Of a DNA stretch of 35,161 nucleotides, positions 264 through 3,588 are shown piece by piece. Each line of letters begins with the position of its first letter. Position 1 is the first letter of the stretch. Under the pieces are notes generated by a model. That model had not been told where the DNA came from and searched no databases. It saw nothing but the letters and a program-made list of their open reading frames with translations. The translations under genes were made by a program, and so were the position numbers. This DNA comes from a bacterium (GTDB taxonomy: Bacteria; Patescibacteriota; Minisyncoccia; Phycocordibacterales; UBA10002): positions 1 to 35,161 of the forward strand of contig JAUSFR010000013.1 of NCBI GenBank assembly GCA_030649775.1, given 5' to 3'.

Positions 264-1436
264 ATGAAGATTTTGATTTTTAGCACTGCCTATCTTCCGT
301 TCGTGGGAGGCGCGGAACTTGCGATTAAAGAAATTACCGACCGTTTGCCTGATATTTCTTTTACGCTCATCACCGCGCGCTTTTCGCGTGGCGTACCCGC
401 TCGTGAACGGATAGGGAATGTGGAGGTCTACCGCGTCGGGTTTGGAACTCGGTTTGATAAATGGTTCTTGCCGTGGCTCGGGCTCCGCAAAGCAAAACAG
501 CTTGAAAGCACTGCACACTTTGATGTGCTCTGGTCTATGATGGCGAGTCAAGCGAGCCTTTCGGCTACGTGGTTTAAGGAATTACACCAGGGCAAGAAAC
601 TCGTACTTACGCTCCAAGAAGGAGATGAAGAAGCGCACCTCAAACGGTATGTGCTGGGCAATGAATTTTTGTATGAGCTTTTCATCCGTTCGTGGCACGT
701 CGCGGTCTTCAAGCAGGCAAATGTGATTACCGCTATCAGTAACTACTTGGCCGACCGCGCGCGCAGAAACAGTTCGGCGGAAGTGGAAGTGATACCCAAC
801 GGAGTTACCGTTGGGAAATTCCAAATTCCAAATTCCAAATCCCAAACAAATTCAAAATCACAAAATACCGAAGTAAGGCAAAGGCTCGGGATAAAACCCG
901 AGGACAAGGTTGTTATTACCACATCGAGATTGGTGGAGAAGAATGGGGTAGGGGATTTAATTGAGGCAATGCAGTATCTACCGGAGTATGTAAAACTGCT
1001 CATTTGTGGCACGGGACATCTGGACCGGGACTATAAGCTAAAAGCTAAAAGCTATCAGCTAGAAGGTCGTATTCGGTTTCTTGGACACGTTCCGAACGAA
1101 CAGCTTCCCGACTATCTTCAGAGTGCCGACATATTCTGCCGACCGTCACTCTCCGAGGGCTTGGGGATTTCATTTCTTGAAGCGATGGCTGCGGGAGTGC
1201 CGGTAGTCGCTACTCCGGTGGGCGGTATTCCCGACTTTTTAAGCGACGGGGGAACAGGACTCTTTTGCGAAGTGAACAATCCCAAAAGCATTGCCGAAAA
1301 GGTACAAACGCTTTTGTCGGATAGTGACCTACGCACCCGTATTGCGACAAATGCGCTTGCAATGGTTCAGGAGAAATATGGATGGGAGGGAATCGCGGAG
1401 AAGATGAAGTCGGTGTTTGTTGACAAAGTAGACTAG
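264..1436 (+). CDS. glycosyltransferase family 4 (GT-B)
   Basis: GGAE, IPNGV, SRLVEKNG and EGLGISFLEAMAAGVPVV motifs. Confidence 0.95.
   Translation: MKILIFSTAYLPFVGGAELAIKEITDRLPDISFTLITARFSRGVPARERIGNVEVYRVGFGTRFDKWFLPWLGLRKAKQLESTAHFDVLWSMMASQASLSATWFKELHQGKKLVLTLQEGDEEAHLKRYVLGNEFLYELFIRSWHVAVFKQANVITAISNYLADRARRNSSAEVEVIPNGVTVGKFQIPNSKSQTNSKSQNTEVRQRLGIKPEDKVVITTSRLVEKNGVGDLIEAMQYLPEYVKLLICGTGHLDRDYKLKAKSYQLEGRIRFLGHVPNEQLPDYLQSADIFCRPSLSEGLGISFLEAMAAGVPVVATPVGGIPDFLSDGGTGLFCEVNNPKSIAEKVQTLLSDSDLRTRIATNALAMVQEKYGWEGIAEKMKSVFVDKVD
816..868 (+). repeat. in-frame heptamer array (AAATTCC)3-AAATCCC-AAAC-AAATTCA-AAATCAC
   Basis: Directly visible; encodes KFQIPNSKSQTNSKSQN. Confidence 0.9.
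1031..1065 (+). repeat. in-frame degenerate heptamer array CTAnnAG x5
   Basis: CTATAAG CTAAAAG CTAAAAG CTATCAG CTAGAAG. Confidence 0.85.
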
Positions 1437-1447
1437 TGGTATAGCAT
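1420..1447 (+). promoter_or_regulatory. sigma70-type promoter for the leader/proB unit
   Basis: TTGACA (1420-1425), 16 nt spacer, TAGCAT (1442-1447); predicted +1 is about the A of ATG 1454. Confidence 0.6.
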
Positions 1448-1453
1448 AGACGT

Positions 1454-1504
1454 ATGCAGAAGTTTCAGACCGTAAACGTTGTCCCGCCGCAAACCGCCCT
1501 CTAA
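1454..1504 (+). CDS. putative proB leader peptide MQKFQTVNVVPPQTAL
   Basis: Short ORF directly after the promoter; tandem CCG CCG Pro codons at 1484-1489; its stop overlaps the antiterminator strand. Confidence 0.6.
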   Translation: MQKFQTVNVVPPQTAL

Positions 1505-1572
1505 TCGGGTTGGTCCTTTCTTCGTACTTTATACTTAGAAAACCGCCCCGATTATGGGGGCGGTTTTATTTT
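1491..1572 (+). promoter_or_regulatory. putative transcription attenuator (1:2, 2:3 and 3:4 alternative hairpins)
   Basis: 1493-1499 pairs with 1507-1514; TAATCGGG 1502-1509 is the exact complement of CCCGATTA 1547-1554; terminator at 1539-1572. Confidence 0.65.
1539..1572 (+). terminator. intrinsic terminator (attenuator 3:4 hairpin)
   Basis: AAAACCGCCCC-loop-GGGGCGGTTTT followed by ATTTT. Confidence 0.85.
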
Positions 1573-1708
1573 GCGCAACAAATAAAAAATGAAAGAGATG
1601 CCTGTTGTTTTGATGTCGGCGTATCACGAAAGAGTGTGGTAACCCGACTTCAGGACGAGTGTCTTGTAGAAATTGTTCTTTCTTCGGCTCTTTTACAACT
1701 AGCTACCT

Positions 1709-2473
1709 ATGACTACAGAGCAAATTATTGTTATCAAAGTCGGCACCGATGTTCTTAAAAACATCCTTGCATTCAGCATCATTGCACGGCAAATTGCCGA
1801 GCTTAAGAAAATGGGCTACGGTGTCATTCTTGTTTCTTCGGGGGGCGTGACCTCGGGGAGCGACTGTCTCGCCTTTCTTGGAGGAAACCCGGAAGATTAC
1901 CACAAGTGCATTCTTGCAAGTATCGGCGCTTCGTCGCTTCTTGAACACTGGGGGAAAGCACTGATGCTTGACCGTCTCGTTCCGGCGCAGTGCTACTTCA
2001 CCTACGGGAACCTGCGTTTCAAAGGTGAAAAAGAAAGCATTCGTTCTCGTCTGCGTCTGCTCGCCTTTGACCCGTATGCCGTGCCTCTGGTGAATGAAAA
2101 TGACATTGTGTCCGGTGTGGAAATTGAGAAGATGAAAAAAGGACTCGGCGACAATGACCGCCTCGCGCGCATCATCGCCTGTCTTGTGCAGGCACATCAC
2201 GTTCTTTTCGTGACAGAGAAGGGCGCCGTCTATACCGACAATCCCGACAAAAACAAAGAAGCTAAGCGTATCTCACGAATTGACGCAAAGAAGGGATTTC
2301 GCTTGCCTGGGCAGACATCGGGTCCATCAAAAAATGGGAGTGGGGGAATGCAGTCAAAAATCAATCAAGCCGCGATATGCGCCCGAAAAGGGATGCATGC
2401 CGGCATTATCGGCCTGCACAACCCGCTTTCTTTTATGAAGGGGGAAGATGTCGGTACACTGGTGAGTGTATAG
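1709..2473 (+). CDS. proB: glutamate 5-kinase (no C-terminal PUA domain)
   Basis: IVIKVGT, LVSSGG, PLVNENDIV, GDNDRLA, VYTDNP and GSGGMQSK motifs of the amino-acid kinase/G5K family. Confidence 0.9.
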   Translation: MTTEQIIVIKVGTDVLKNILAFSIIARQIAELKKMGYGVILVSSGGVTSGSDCLAFLGGNPEDYHKCILASIGASSLLEHWGKALMLDRLVPAQCYFTYGNLRFKGEKESIRSRLRLLAFDPYAVPLVNENDIVSGVEIEKMKKGLGDNDRLARIIACLVQAHHVLFVTEKGAVYTDNPDKNKEAKRISRIDAKKGFRLPGQTSGPSKNGSGGMQSKINQAAICARKGMHAGIIGLHNPLSFMKGEDVGTLVSV

Positions 2474-2538: not shown

Positions 2539-3588
2539 ATGAAAATCCTTATAGCGACAGGCATCTACCCTCCCGATATTGGAGGCCCGGCGCAATACGC
2601 CCGTGGGGTAGAGGAGGCATGGAAAAAAGAGGGGCACCAGGTAAAGGTGCTCGCGTTTTCCGCCGTTTGTCGGACAGGAGTTTTGAACTGGAAACTCCCG
2701 ACGGGTATTCGTCACCTCTACTACTTTTTGCGAGTACTCTGCTCGCTCCCCGGCACTGACTTTGTGTTTTCTCCCGACACCTTCAGTGCGGCGTTTCCCG
2801 CGCTTCTTGCCTGCAAACTGTTCAGAAAGAAACTTATCATCCGAACCGGAGGCGACTTCCTGTGGGAGCAGTATGTGGAGCGGACAGGAGACTTGGTATT
2901 GCTCAAAGATTTTTATGTTACGCACGTCAAACGGTTCAATCGGAAAGAGAAAATTATTTTCTCGCTTCTTCGGTTTCTGTTTCGGCACGTGGCCGCCACT
3001 ATTTTTAGCACCGCGTGGCAACGGGACATTTTTGAAAAGCCCTACGGCCTGAATCTCAAGAAGTGCTTTATTGTGGAGAACCAATATGGTCAGCAAACAC
3101 CACATCTAGAACATACTGACAAACTTAAGAATGTTGGTATGTCCAAGGTGTTTGTGGGGGGAACGAGAGAACTCCGATGGAAGAATCTCGCGCGTGTGCA
3201 GGAAGCGTTTGCAAAGGTGCAGAAAAAGGGACTGCCGGTTTCGCTAGTGCTCCAGACAGGAAGTCACGGGAAGTTTTTGATGGATATTGAGGAAAGTTAT
3301 GCGGTCATTCTTGCTTCGCTTGGCGATATTTCCCCCAACACCATTCTTGACGCTATTGCCCTCGGCAAGCCGTTCATTCTCACCCGCGAGACGGGCCTCT
3401 ATGACAAGCTGAAAGATATTGGCGTCTGGGTCAATCCCGAAGATGTAAGTGACATCGCGGAGAAAATTGAGTGGCTGTCGGACGCCCGTAATTACGAGGC
3501 ACAGTACGCAAAAATCCAGGCATATAGCTTTACTCACAGCTACGAGCAAATTAGTAACGAAATCATGAATATATATGCGCGTACTTAA
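2539..3588 (+). CDS. glycosyltransferase family 4
   Basis: MKILIATGIYPPDIGGPA N-terminus and DISPNTILDAIALGKP; start moved to ATG 2539, 6 nt after TATGAT. Confidence 0.9.
   Translation: MKILIATGIYPPDIGGPAQYARGVEEAWKKEGHQVKVLAFSAVCRTGVLNWKLPTGIRHLYYFLRVLCSLPGTDFVFSPDTFSAAFPALLACKLFRKKLIIRTGGDFLWEQYVERTGDLVLLKDFYVTHVKRFNRKEKIIFSLLRFLFRHVAATIFSTAWQRDIFEKPYGLNLKKCFIVENQYGQQTPHLEHTDKLKNVGMSKVFVGGTRELRWKNLARVQEAFAKVQKKGLPVSLVLQTGSHGKFLMDIEESYAVILASLGDISPNTILDAIALGKPFILTRETGLYDKLKDIGVWVNPEDVSDIAEKIEWLSDARNYEAQYAKIQAYSFTHSYEQISNEIMNIYART
3111..3142. repeat. in-frame 32-nt palindrome
   Basis: ACATACTGACAAACTTAAGAATGTTGGTATGT; 12 Watson-Crick and 2 G-T pairs out of 16. Confidence 0.75.

What the first reader, a model, noticed from the sequence alone, without database searches (positions are those of the whole stretch)
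1420..1572. Candidate proline-sensing ribosomal attenuator with a leaderless Pro-Pro leader peptide upstream of proB
Seen: the promoter TTGACA-16-TAGCAT puts +1 at about ATG 1454 of a 16-codon ORF, MQKFQTVNVVPPQTAL*, with CCG CCG at 1484-1489. Segment 1 (1493-1499) pairs with segment 2 (1507-1514). Segment 2 (TAATCGGG.TGGT, 1502-1514) can instead pair with segment 3 (ACCG.CCCGATTA, 1542-1554). Segments 3:4 form a strong terminator. Established: this is the geometry of trp/his-type attenuators; proBA control I know of in Firmicutes uses T-boxes, and Pro-codon leaders are known for Salmonella mgtA/mgtC. Inference: stalling at Pro-Pro (low Pro-tRNA or EF-P limitation) masks segment 1 and allows 2:3 antitermination, while a ribosome at the stop codon masks segment 2 and allows termination. 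I know of no described leader-peptide attenuator for proB, nor one in CPR bacteria.
Basis: partly seen in the sequence, partly recalled or inferred. Interest (0 to 1): 0.85.

Follow-up and report, generated by a model that had tools for sequence, protein, structure and literature searches.

The report
Proline leader-peptide attenuator in CPR bacteria
A tiny upstream gene with proline codons, followed by a hairpin that can switch between "stop" and "go", sits before a proline-pathway-type kinase gene in many ultra-small (CPR) bacteria and most likely switches that gene on when proline-charged tRNA runs short, a classic control device that I could not find described for proline genes or for this group.

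Summary
I collected 30 distinct leaders from seven families and two classes of the phylum. Each has a short ORF with at least two Pro codons (Pro-Pro in 28 of 30), a terminator hairpin with a U-tract, and a segment at the stop codon that pairs with the terminator's 5' arm.

Third-position drift (Val as GTG/GTC/GTA/GTT, Pro2 as CCG/CCA/CCC) shows the ORF is read as protein. A -35/-10 pair ends 6-7 nt before the ATG in 21-24 of 29 leaders. This genome has no Shine-Dalgarno signal and shows a genome-wide peak of -10-like hexamers at that same 6-nt spacing.

In the genus, leaders occur only at kinase or proB loci. In one congener lineage the same leader lies 52 nt before a canonical proB-proA-proC operon.

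In the window's own genome the target is a PUA-less glutamate-5-kinase-like gene, and neither proA nor proC was found. A second conserved hairpin domain lies between the terminator and the kinase start.

Verdict: a ribosome-mediated, Pro-codon transcription attenuator, a new variant of a known kind. There are no expression data.

The parts
1420..1447 (+). Promoter: -35 TTGACA (1420-1425), 16-nt spacer, -10 TAGCAT (1442-1447). The -10 ends 6 nt before the ATG, so the leader mRNA should be leaderless.
   Evidence: 10 of 12 matches. The same layout is found in 21 of 29 leaders by script and 24 of 29 by eye. Genome-wide, TAnnnT peaks at exactly 6 nt before the ATG.
1454..1504 (+). Leader ORF of 16 codons plus TAA, MQKFQTVNVVPPQTAL*. 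The regulatory Pro codons CCG CCG are at 1484-1489.
   Evidence: Conserved peptide and synonymous third-position drift.
1491..1499 (+). Segment 1 (AAACCGCCC). It pairs weakly with segment 2 (1:2, -7.8 kcal/mol). Being a copy of 1540-1548, it can also pair with segment 4.
1502..1514 (+). Segment 2. It begins with the stop codon TAA and forms the 5' arm of the antiterminator.
1542..1554 (+). Segment 3. It is the 3' arm of the antiterminator and overlaps the 5' arm of the terminator (1539-1549).
1539..1572 (+). Intrinsic terminator: 3:4 hairpin 1539-1567 (-20.5 kcal/mol) and U-tract 1564-1572.
1606..1699 (+). Second conserved 5'-UTR domain: hairpin P1 (1615-1619 with 1644-1648), hairpin P2 (1651-1666), and the conserved motifs GTTCTTT and CTCTTTTACAAC (to 1699). 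Function unknown.
   Evidence: No Rfam match.
1709..2473 (+). Regulated gene: a 254-aa amino-acid kinase, glutamate-5-kinase-like, without a PUA domain.

Best explanation
This is a ribosome-mediated transcription attenuator read out at proline codons. Every step below is inferred from anatomy and comparison.

Transcription starts at or next to A1454, so the RNA begins with the AUG of a 16-codon leader ORF, and a 70S ribosome loads without a Shine-Dalgarno site.

If Pro-tRNA(Pro) is plentiful, the ribosome runs to the TAA at 1502, which is the first triplet of segment 2. That blocks 2:3, the 3:4 hairpin forms, and RNA polymerase stops at the U-tract (about 1568-1572).

If the ribosome lingers at CCG CCG (1484-1489), it covers segment 1 but leaves segment 2 free. 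Segment 2 then pairs with segment 3 as it emerges. Segment 4 has no partner, and polymerase reads on through a second structured domain into the kinase gene.

With no ribosome at all, 1:2 plus 3:4 forms, or the long 1:4 plus 2:3 hairpin forms. Both end at the U-tract, so the default state is off.
For: Anatomy. 2:3 (-19.9) and 3:4 (-20.5 kcal/mol) are mutually exclusive and nearly isoenergetic, and the stop codon lies inside segment 2. RNAalifold on 11 leaders returns 1:2 plus 3:4 as the consensus. With the ribosome masked at the stop codon, the terminator forms in 11 of 11 leaders. With the A site on Pro1 and a 16-nt mask, 2:3 forms in 9 of 11.

Conservation. There are 30 distinct leaders. All have at least 2 Pro codons, 28 have Pro-Pro, and 9 have at least 3. 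In 28 of 30 the scripted distance from the first Pro codon to segment 2 is 18-26 nt. The outliers are L114, which reads as 18 nt by hand, and L091, where an earlier Pro in the S16 tail is counted instead of the motif's.

Translation. Across 21 type-1 leaders the Val before Pro-Pro uses all four codons while positions 1 and 2 never vary, and Pro2 is CCG, CCA or CCC.

Antiterminator. Within type 1, 94.9% of cells pair, against 27-60% when the partner is slid. A TAA to TGA change in the stop codon is matched by U to C in segment 3 in 3 sequences. In lineages with unrelated segment sequences, the cognate 2:3 duplex beats shuffles (at most 19 of 1000 as good) in 9 of 11 representatives.

Linkage. 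A kinase homologue follows the leader in 14 of 14 metagenome loci that have enough downstream DNA. In the genus, 11 of 21 genomes have a leader, always at the kinase or proB locus, and none of the 7 genomes without a kinase has one.

Link to proline. The same leader lies 52 nt before proB (294 bits), proA (501 bits) and proC (249.5 bits) in L051, and the same leader is in L017.

Leaderless start. TAnnnT ends 6 nt before the ATG in 8.4% of 857 crude ORF starts, against about 2% at other offsets. There is no Shine-Dalgarno peak.
Against: There are no expression data. No RNA run holds the stretch, so the start site, translation of the ORF and the short terminated RNA are all unverified.

Equilibrium folds depend on the assumed ribosome footprint. 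With the A site on Pro2 and a 16-nt mask, the terminator is the minimum-energy fold in 9 of 11 leaders. With short masks, the unmasked part of segment 1 can still pair with segment 4. The decision would therefore have to be kinetic, and a stall with Pro2 in the P site fits best.

Type-1 leaders have only two Pro codons. CCG is the commonest Pro codon in this genome (37%), and three tRNA-Pro anticodon types are present.

Residues other than Pro (Asn, Ile/Val, Val) are also conserved across families, which plain codon sensing does not require.

Covariation inside type 1 is thin, with one doubly changed pair in 2:3 and no signal above shuffles in 3:4. Two distant leaders (L093, L086) did not beat shuffles.

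In the window's genome, and in 5 other leader-bearing genomes, no proA or proC was found. What a proline signal achieves there is unclear.
Confidence: 0.8

Rival explanations
1. The RNA switch is the same, but the signal is not the supply of Pro-tRNA. The conserved nascent peptide (Asn-Ile/Val-Val-Pro-Pro-x-Pro) would act as an arrest peptide. Its stalling would report EF-P activity, general translation capacity or a small molecule in the exit tunnel.
For: The peptide is conserved beyond its Pro codons across seven families and two classes. The masked folds fit best when Pro2 is in the P site. As I recall, that is the position reported for EF-P-dependent Pro-Pro-X stalls (for the folds). An EF-P homologue is present. 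EF-P control of Pro-codon leaders is in print for Salmonella mgtA and mgtB (listings only).
Against: Two distant leaders keep three or four Pro codons but no consecutive pair (Pro-Ser-Pro-Ala-Pro and Pro-Ser-Pro-Thr-Pro). That fits codon supply better than a Pro-Pro-specific stall. The same leader controls a complete proB-proA-proC operon, for which proline supply is the natural signal.
Confidence: 0.12
2. The short terminated transcript, or the 16-residue peptide, is a product in its own right (a small RNA or small protein). Control of the kinase would be secondary or absent.
For: Inside the genus the leader is far better conserved at the nucleotide level than the kinase, which ranges from 28% to 90% amino-acid identity. 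Trans-acting attenuator RNAs and leader peptides are in print for Sinorhizobium trpL (listings only).
Against: The conserved loop bases are explained by the extended 2:3 hairpin. The element is single-copy and always sits directly upstream of a kinase, a proB or a gene followed by a kinase. Segment sequences turn over completely between families while the pairing is kept.
Confidence: 0.05
3. The hairpin is just the terminator of the upstream glycosyltransferase gene, the small ORF is chance, and the kinase has its own promoter in 1573-1708.
For: Within the genus a GT1-family gene often lies upstream on the same strand, so the hairpin probably does also end those transcripts.
Against: The ORF, its promoter and the 2:3 pairing are conserved in 30 leaders. 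The upstream gene is on the opposite strand in L087 and L093 and is unrelated in L085 and L091. No promoter-like site lies in 1573-1708. No -10-like hexamer sits at leaderless spacing before ATG 1709 (read). Conserved RNA hairpins abut the U-tract in L085, L087, L089, L012 and L013.
Confidence: 0.02

Closest known systems
Leader-peptide transcription attenuators of amino-acid operons (trp, his, leu, thr, ilv, pheA; features recalled from textbook knowledge)
   Same: A short leader ORF carries codons of the cognate amino acid. There are 1:2, 2:3 and 3:4 alternative hairpins, an intrinsic terminator and an off default. In one lineage the regulated genes are the biosynthetic operon for that amino acid.
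   Different: The amino acid is proline. The leader mRNA is apparently leaderless. Non-regulatory residues of the peptide are conserved across families. In type 1, segment 1 is a copy of part of segment 3, so a second terminator-like pairing (1:4) exists. No Rfam leader family matches (Phe_leader and Thr_leader score 15-19 bits against a gathering score of 55). The hosts are CPR bacteria.
Salmonella mgtP (and mgtL) proline-codon leader ORFs (PMC3641672, abstract read)
   Same: A short ORF with conserved Pro codons raises downstream transcription under conditions expected to lower charged tRNA-Pro. That leader also has tandem attenuators, which resembles the tandem type-1 and type-2 leaders in L013/L022 and L042.
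   Different: The Salmonella elements control Mg2+ transport and virulence genes, not proline-pathway genes. They are not leaderless. No sequence or Rfam relationship was detected.
Mycobacterial leaderless polycysteine short ORFs (bioRxiv 10.1101/834739, abstract read)
   Same: A leaderless sensory short ORF is the first cistron, and ribosome pausing at codons of one amino acid controls genes of that amino acid's metabolism.
   Different: According to that abstract, the stalled ribosome unmasks a sequestered ribosome-binding site, which is translational control. Here a terminator hairpin with a U-tract points to transcriptional control. The amino acid and the phylum also differ.
T-box control of proBA in Bacillus (recalled; papers pairing these terms were seen only in the listing)
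   Same: A proline biosynthetic kinase gene is controlled by the charging state of tRNA-Pro through a terminator/antiterminator switch.
   Different: A T-box binds uncharged tRNA directly and needs no translation. No T-box match was found here.

Membership tests
Ribosome-mediated leader-peptide transcription attenuator | Short leader ORF upstream of the regulated gene that carries codons of the sensed amino acid | tested here: met
   All 30 leaders have at least 2 Pro codons and 28 of 30 have Pro-Pro. Coding-type third-position drift is seen.
Ribosome-mediated leader-peptide transcription attenuator | Intrinsic terminator (GC-rich hairpin plus U-tract) between the leader ORF and the structural gene | tested here: met
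   Present in 29 of 29 leaders at -9.3 to -25.5 kcal/mol and in L114. In the window it is 1539-1572 at -20.5 kcal/mol.
Ribosome-mediated leader-peptide transcription attenuator | Antiterminator that competes for the terminator's 5' arm and is kept in evolution | tested here: met
   In the window 2:3 is -19.9 kcal/mol. Type 1 shows 94.9% pairing. Nine of 11 representatives beat shuffles despite different sequences. Covariation within type 1 alone is weak.
Ribosome-mediated leader-peptide transcription attenuator | Geometry: a ribosome at the regulatory codons frees segment 2, and a ribosome at the stop codon covers it | tested here: inconclusive
   The scripted Pro-to-segment-2 distance is 18-26 nt in 28 of 30, and the stop codon lies at or near the start of segment 2. 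Masked equilibrium folds give the read-through conformer only for some footprints.
Ribosome-mediated leader-peptide transcription attenuator | Regulated genes make the sensed amino acid | tested here: inconclusive
   Met in L051 (same leader in L017), where the operon is proB-proA-proC. In the window's genome the target is a kinase-like gene with no proA or proC found.
Ribosome-mediated leader-peptide transcription attenuator | Read-through rises on starvation for the amino acid | not testable with these tools
   No RNA run holds the stretch. This needs a reporter or an in vitro assay.
Described Rfam leader, T-box or riboswitch families | Match at the family's gathering score | tested here: not met
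   Best hits in 1300-1800 score 15-23 bits against gathering scores of 40-75. There were 0 matches at gathering score in 11 loci totalling 38 kb.
Leaderless sensory short ORFs | Start codon at the 5' end of the transcript | tested here: inconclusive
   The -10 ends 6-7 nt before the ATG in 21 of 29 leaders by script, and the genome has a peak at 6 nt. The start site has not been mapped.
Glutamate 5-kinase (ProB, TIGR01027) | Score at or above the equivalog cut-off | tested here: not met
   140.1 bits against a cut-off of 186. The model includes a PUA domain that this protein lacks. ProB is still the best family hit, and E. coli glutamate 5-kinase is the best solved relative.
Glutamate 5-kinase (ProB, TIGR01027) | Partner enzymes ProA and ProC in the same genome | tested here: not met
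   No proA, proC or aldehyde-dehydrogenase family member was found in G000, which is 100% complete by markers. None was found in 5 other leader-bearing genomes. The two PF01118 hits are sugar epimerases/dehydratases.

The most novel reading that the evidence does not exclude
Across the phylum, the conserved Asn-Ile/Val-Val-Pro-Pro-x-Pro leader defines a proline- or tRNA-Pro-responsive set of genes whose main target is not classical proline synthesis. That target is an orphan PUA-less glutamate-5-kinase paralogue, in some lineages together with a small tRNA-binding protein. It is gated by a second, undescribed structured RNA. This would point to an unknown route by which these reduced, host-dependent bacteria cope with proline or Pro-tRNA shortage. 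The peptide itself would act as a specific arrest sequence rather than a passive run of codons.
Probability: 0.3. Interest if true: 0.8.

Novelty: new variant of a known kind. Interest (0 to 1): 0.7.

Why it matters
Classical attenuation is known for several amino-acid operons. My searches found no leader-peptide attenuator for proline-pathway genes and none in CPR/Patescibacteria.

If confirmed, this adds proline to that list. It would also show that bacteria of this group, which here lack Shine-Dalgarno signals, use leaderless sensory ORFs coupled to intrinsic termination.

It gives a handle on regulation in organisms that cannot be grown alone. It also exposes a puzzle that can be tested: a proline-signalled kinase in genomes without the rest of the proline pathway, followed by an unassigned conserved RNA domain.

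Tried and rejected
- **First pattern scan.** The first genome-contig scan found nothing because I miscounted a spacer (5 N, not 6). The second pattern gave 15 hits. Seven are true leaders. Eight lie in unrelated phyla, lack the ORF and terminator, and are close to the roughly 9 chance hits I estimated by hand.
- **Order-wide model scan.** The covariance-model scan gave 30 further genomes with weak matches (22-36 bits). Of the 16 I read, 15 are ordinary terminators. One (L075, G083) is a true distant leader.
- **L016.** It has a small ORF ending in Trp-Val-Pro-Pro-Asn but no terminator, so I treated it as chance.
- **Overlapping frame.** A +1-frame ORF (Met-Leu-Tyr/Cys-Arg-Arg-Arg-Pro-Pro...) exists only where the Asn codon is AAT (7 of 21 type-1 leaders), so I rejected it.
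- **Anti-Shine-Dalgarno mimic.** I considered that the CU-rich loop mimics an anti-Shine-Dalgarno sequence or acts as a small-RNA seed. I dropped this because those bases pair within the extended 2:3 hairpin.
- **tRNA-dependent proline synthesis.** I considered a route linking the kinase with the tRNA-binding protein. I set it aside because a normal ProRS is present.
- **Stand-ins for ProA.** The PF01118 hits are sugar epimerases.
- **RNA evidence.** No RNA holder is listed for the stretch.
- **Second domain.** Automated alignments of it were noisy, and I did not build a model for it.
- **Not run.** No structure or complex prediction and no large protein-database search was run. Supplementary files of papers were not consulted.
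Full report
**What is in the window.**

- TTGACA is at 1420-1425, followed by a 16-nt spacer, TAGCAT at 1442-1447, 6 nt, and ATG 1454.
- The ORF 1454-1504 encodes MQKFQTVNVVPPQTAL*, with CCG CCG at 1484-1489.
- AAACCGCCC (1491-1499, segment 1) is repeated at 1540-1548.
- TAATCGGGTTGGT (1502-1514, segment 2) starts with the stop codon and is complementary to ACCGCCCCGATTA (1542-1554, segment 3).
- Segment 3 overlaps the 5' arm of a terminator hairpin (1539-1567), which is followed by TTTTATTTT.

Folded alone, 1:2 is -7.8, 2:3 is -19.9 and 3:4 is -20.5 kcal/mol. The minimum-energy fold of 1450-1575 is a long hairpin made of 1:4 plus 2:3 at -45.7 kcal/mol. Its z-score is -4.3, and 0 of 200 shuffles fold as well. 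The promoter-like site is the best of five in the first 6 kb, and none lies in 1573-1708. No Rfam family comes near its gathering score.

**The downstream gene.** ORF 1709-2473 (254 aa) is an amino-acid kinase (PF00696, 95 bits).

- Its best NCBIfam hit is proB at 140 bits. That is below the cut-off of 186, but the model includes a PUA domain that this protein lacks.
- Its best solved relatives are E. coli glutamate 5-kinase chains, at E-values near 1e-22.
- In the printed alignment, the stretches around the N-terminal Lys-x-Gly-Thr, Asn-Glu-Asn-Asp and Gly-Asp-Asn-Asp are kept. That these are the catalytic and glutamate-binding motifs is my recollection, not a tool result.

**Conservation.** The window is contig C76 of a 917-kb genome that is 100% complete by marker genes.

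- Kinase homologues occur in 13 of 20 other genomes of the genus and in 1 of 40 genomes from other families in the first sample.
- Reading their upstream DNA showed the same small ORF, promoter and hairpins in 10 of 12 loci. One of the other two is cut 57 nt upstream by a contig end.
- A 20-nt pattern found 7 true leaders among 15 hits in named genomes. Their record titles say Candidatus Taylorbacteria, Candidatus Nomurabacteria, Parcubacteria group, and one says Saccharibacteria. The other 8 hits are chance.
- A metagenome scan gave 18 loci. All 18 match a covariance model built from 11 leaders at 100-129 bits.

Searching by the kinase extended the range.

- In 401 genomes of the order, 18 carry the kinase.
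- Six more, very different leaders lie upstream of PUA-less kinases in five other families.
- A phylum-wide sample of 401 genomes (7 with the kinase) added one leader from another class.
- After removing duplicates there are 30 distinct leaders.

Kinases that carry a Shine-Dalgarno site (three loci of one family) have no leader. Neither do most PUA-containing proB genes, including two in the genus.

**The ORF is translated.**

- Type-1 peptides read Met-Gln-Lys-x4-Asn-Val/Ile/Leu/Ala-Val-Pro-Pro-x-Thr/Ala-Ala-Leu-stop.
- Other lineages read ...Asn-Ile-Val-Pro-Pro-Ala-Pro-Ile-Asn...Val-Val-Pro-Pro-Thr-Pro-Ser-Asn...Ile-Val-Pro-Pro-Pro-Ser-Pro-Asn-Pro...Leu-Ile-Val-Pro-Pro-Ser-Thr-Pro, and in two cases Pro-Ser-Pro-x-Pro.
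- In 21 type-1 leaders the Val before Pro-Pro is GTG, GTC, GTA or GTT with invariant first and second positions.
- Pro2 is CCG, CCA or CCC, Asn is AAC or AAT, and Leu is CTC or CTT.

This is the signature of selection on the peptide, not only on the RNA. All 30 leaders have at least 2 Pro codons, 28 have Pro-Pro, and 9 have three or more.

**The start is probably leaderless.**

- A -10-like hexamer ends 6-7 nt before the ATG, with a TTGACA- or TTGCAA-like -35 at 16-17 nt, in 21 of 29 leaders by script.
- Three more (L040, L048, L053) show the same layout by eye.
- The exceptions are L009 (weak), the two type-2 leaders that follow another gene, L086 (a 30-nt leader) and L091.
- Across the genome, TAnnnT ends exactly 6 nt before the first ATG in 8.4% of 857 crude ORF starts, against about 2% at other offsets.
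- GGAG-type words never exceed 1.8% at any offset.

This organism therefore does not seem to use Shine-Dalgarno pairing, and it has a class of leaderless genes with the spacing seen here.

**The switch is conserved.**

- All 29 leaders examined have a hairpin plus U-tract at -9.3 to -25.5 kcal/mol.
- RNAalifold on 11 leaders gives 1:2 plus 3:4 as the consensus.
- In 21 type-1 leaders, 2:3 pairs in 94.9% of cells, against 27-60% when the partner is slid.
- The one doubly changed pair is informative: TAA to TGA in the stop codon goes with U to C in segment 3 in three sequences. Only 28 of 500 shuffles reach that count.
- Otherwise the sequences are too alike to show covariation, and 3:4 shows none above shuffles.

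The stronger evidence comes from other lineages, where segments 2 and 3 have unrelated sequences but still pair. For 9 of 11 representatives, the window around the stop codon pairs with the cognate terminator arm better than all but 0-19 of 1000 shuffles. L093 and L086 do not.

The scripted distance from the first Pro codon to segment 2 is 18-26 nt in 28 of 30 leaders. The outliers are L114, which reads as 18 nt by hand, and L091, where an earlier Pro in the S16 tail is counted. The stop codon lies at or just before segment 2 in most.

**How well the geometry works.**

- With the ribosome masked at the stop codon, the terminator forms in 11 of 11 leaders.
- With the A site on Pro1 and a 16-nt mask, 2:3 forms in 9 of 11.
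- With the A site on Pro2 and the same mask, the terminator is again the minimum-energy fold in 9 of 11.
- A finer scan shows that short masks leave part of segment 1 free to pair with segment 4.

Because 2:3 and 3:4 are nearly isoenergetic, the choice must be kinetic: whichever partner of segment 3 is free when it emerges wins. In type 1 the cleanest read-through state has Pro2 in the P site, or in the A site with at least about 13 nt shielded. This is inference. It leaves open whether the signal is supply of charged tRNA-Pro or slow Pro-Pro bond formation. An EF-P homologue, ProRS and tRNA-Pro with anticodons CGG, GGG and UGG are present, and CCG is the commonest Pro codon.

**Link to the regulated gene and to proline.**

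- A kinase homologue follows the leader in 14 of 14 metagenome loci with enough downstream DNA. Five loci end too soon to tell.
- A model scan of all 21 genomes of the genus finds leaders in 11. Each has a single copy except one genome with two, and all are at the kinase or proB locus.
- The 7 genomes without a kinase have none. One kinase sits at a contig end.
- In the window's own genome the leader is unique. It is the only Pro-rich one among 8 small ORFs that have leaderless-type promoters and terminators.

The most telling case is L051, whose leader also occurs in L017 and L041. There the type-1 leader lies 52 nt before a canonical proB with a PUA domain (294 bits), proA (501 bits) and proC (249.5 bits). 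That ties the element to proline synthesis.

**A puzzle.** The window's genome has no proA, no proC and no aldehyde-dehydrogenase family member. The same holds for proA and proC in five other leader-bearing genomes from five families, each 99-100% complete. Possible stand-ins of the semialdehyde-dehydrogenase family turned out to be sugar epimerases. In most lineages, therefore, the leader controls an orphan glutamate-5-kinase-like enzyme.

**Rivals.** That the hairpin is only the upstream gene's terminator is very unlikely.

- The upstream gene is pyrF on the opposite strand in L087 and an AAA_33 gene on the opposite strand in L093.
- It is a peptidoglycan-binding protein in L085 and ribosomal protein S16 in L091.
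- The leader has its own conserved promoter.
- Conserved RNA hairpins abut the U-tract in several loci.

Within the genus a GT1 gene is usually upstream, so the hairpin probably also ends its transcripts. The arrest-peptide reading and the independent-product reading are set out under rival explanations.

**Comparison with what is known.** The logic is that of trp/his-type attenuators. Pro-codon leader ORFs are described for Salmonella mgtP (abstract). Leaderless sensory ORFs are described for mycobacterial cysteine genes, where the abstract describes control of a ribosome-binding site rather than termination. Searches pairing leader peptide with proB or glutamate 5-kinase, proline biosynthesis with attenuation, and Patescibacteria or Parcubacteria with these terms found no description of such an element. 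These searches cover open-access full text only. I file it as a new variant of a known kind.

**Verdict.** The mechanism remains inferred, and interest is fairly high because of the host group, the conserved peptide, the orphan target and the extra RNA domain.

Noticed in passing
window 1606-1699; also L085, L087, L089, L091, L093, L009, L011, L012, L013, L021, L042: A second conserved 5'-UTR domain lies between the attenuator terminator and the kinase start. It has a long hairpin P1, a hairpin P2 (often CCAGAAC...GTTCTGG), a hairpin P3 in many lineages, and then a conserved GTTCTTT / CTTTGAAAAC-like motif 7-25 nt before the ATG. The stems differ in sequence between lineages but keep their pairing. 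The domain is absent before the canonical proB of L017. There is no Rfam match. It may be an unassigned cis-regulatory RNA.
   Followed up: partly
whole genome G000 and handles G001, G297, G277, G083, G171: The leader-controlled PUA-less glutamate-5-kinase-like gene is an orphan. No proA or proC was found in 6 of 6 leader-bearing genomes tested (99-100% complete). G000 also has no aldehyde-dehydrogenase family member.
   Followed up: partly
L013/L022, L042, L044, L085: A 111-aa tRNA-binding-domain protein (PF01588) travels with the system. It directly follows a type-1 leader in three loci, where a second, type-2 Pro leader and the kinase come after it. In another family (L085) it directly follows the kinase. 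None was found in G000 by tblastn.
   Followed up: partly
L091 (G083): The Pro motif (...Glu-Ala-Ser-Val-Pro-Pro-Thr-Pro-Ala-Asn-stop) is the in-frame C-terminal tail of a ribosomal protein S16 ORF (PF00886). The attenuator and kinase sit between rpsP and a KH-domain gene, as if inserted into that operon.
   Followed up: partly
window 2539-3588 and genus loci L006, L008, L009, L010, L011, L013, L015, L040, L054: A divergent GT4-type glycosyltransferase-like ORF (309-397 aa) follows the kinase on the same strand in 9 of 9 genus loci tested and in the window. A GT1 gene usually precedes the leader. A terminator-like hairpin at 2490-2515 separates the kinase from this ORF in the window.
   Followed up: partly
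whole genome G000: There is no Shine-Dalgarno signal before ORF starts (GGAG-type words at most 1.8% at any offset). There is a sharp peak of TAnnnT ending 6 nt before the ATG, which suggests widespread non-Shine-Dalgarno and leaderless initiation.
   Followed up: partly
L049: A type-1 leader is followed after 33 nt by only the C-terminal half of a kinase homologue (aligned to residues 125-252). It looks like a truncated or decaying copy.
   Followed up: no
L010 (and its duplicate L038), between the terminator and the second domain: About 300 nt of extra DNA rich in long inverted repeats is inserted between the attenuator terminator and the conserved second domain.
   Followed up: no
L042, oriented 998-2083: A 361-aa ORF upstream of the leader contains a Tyr-Ala-Asp-Asp motif and looks like a reverse transcriptase. 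This was not checked against Pfam. The tRNA-binding gene in the same locus appears frameshifted.
   Followed up: no
window about 817-870: A short run of imperfect tandem repeats (aaattcc/aaatccc-like) lies inside the upstream GT1 ORF.
   Followed up: no
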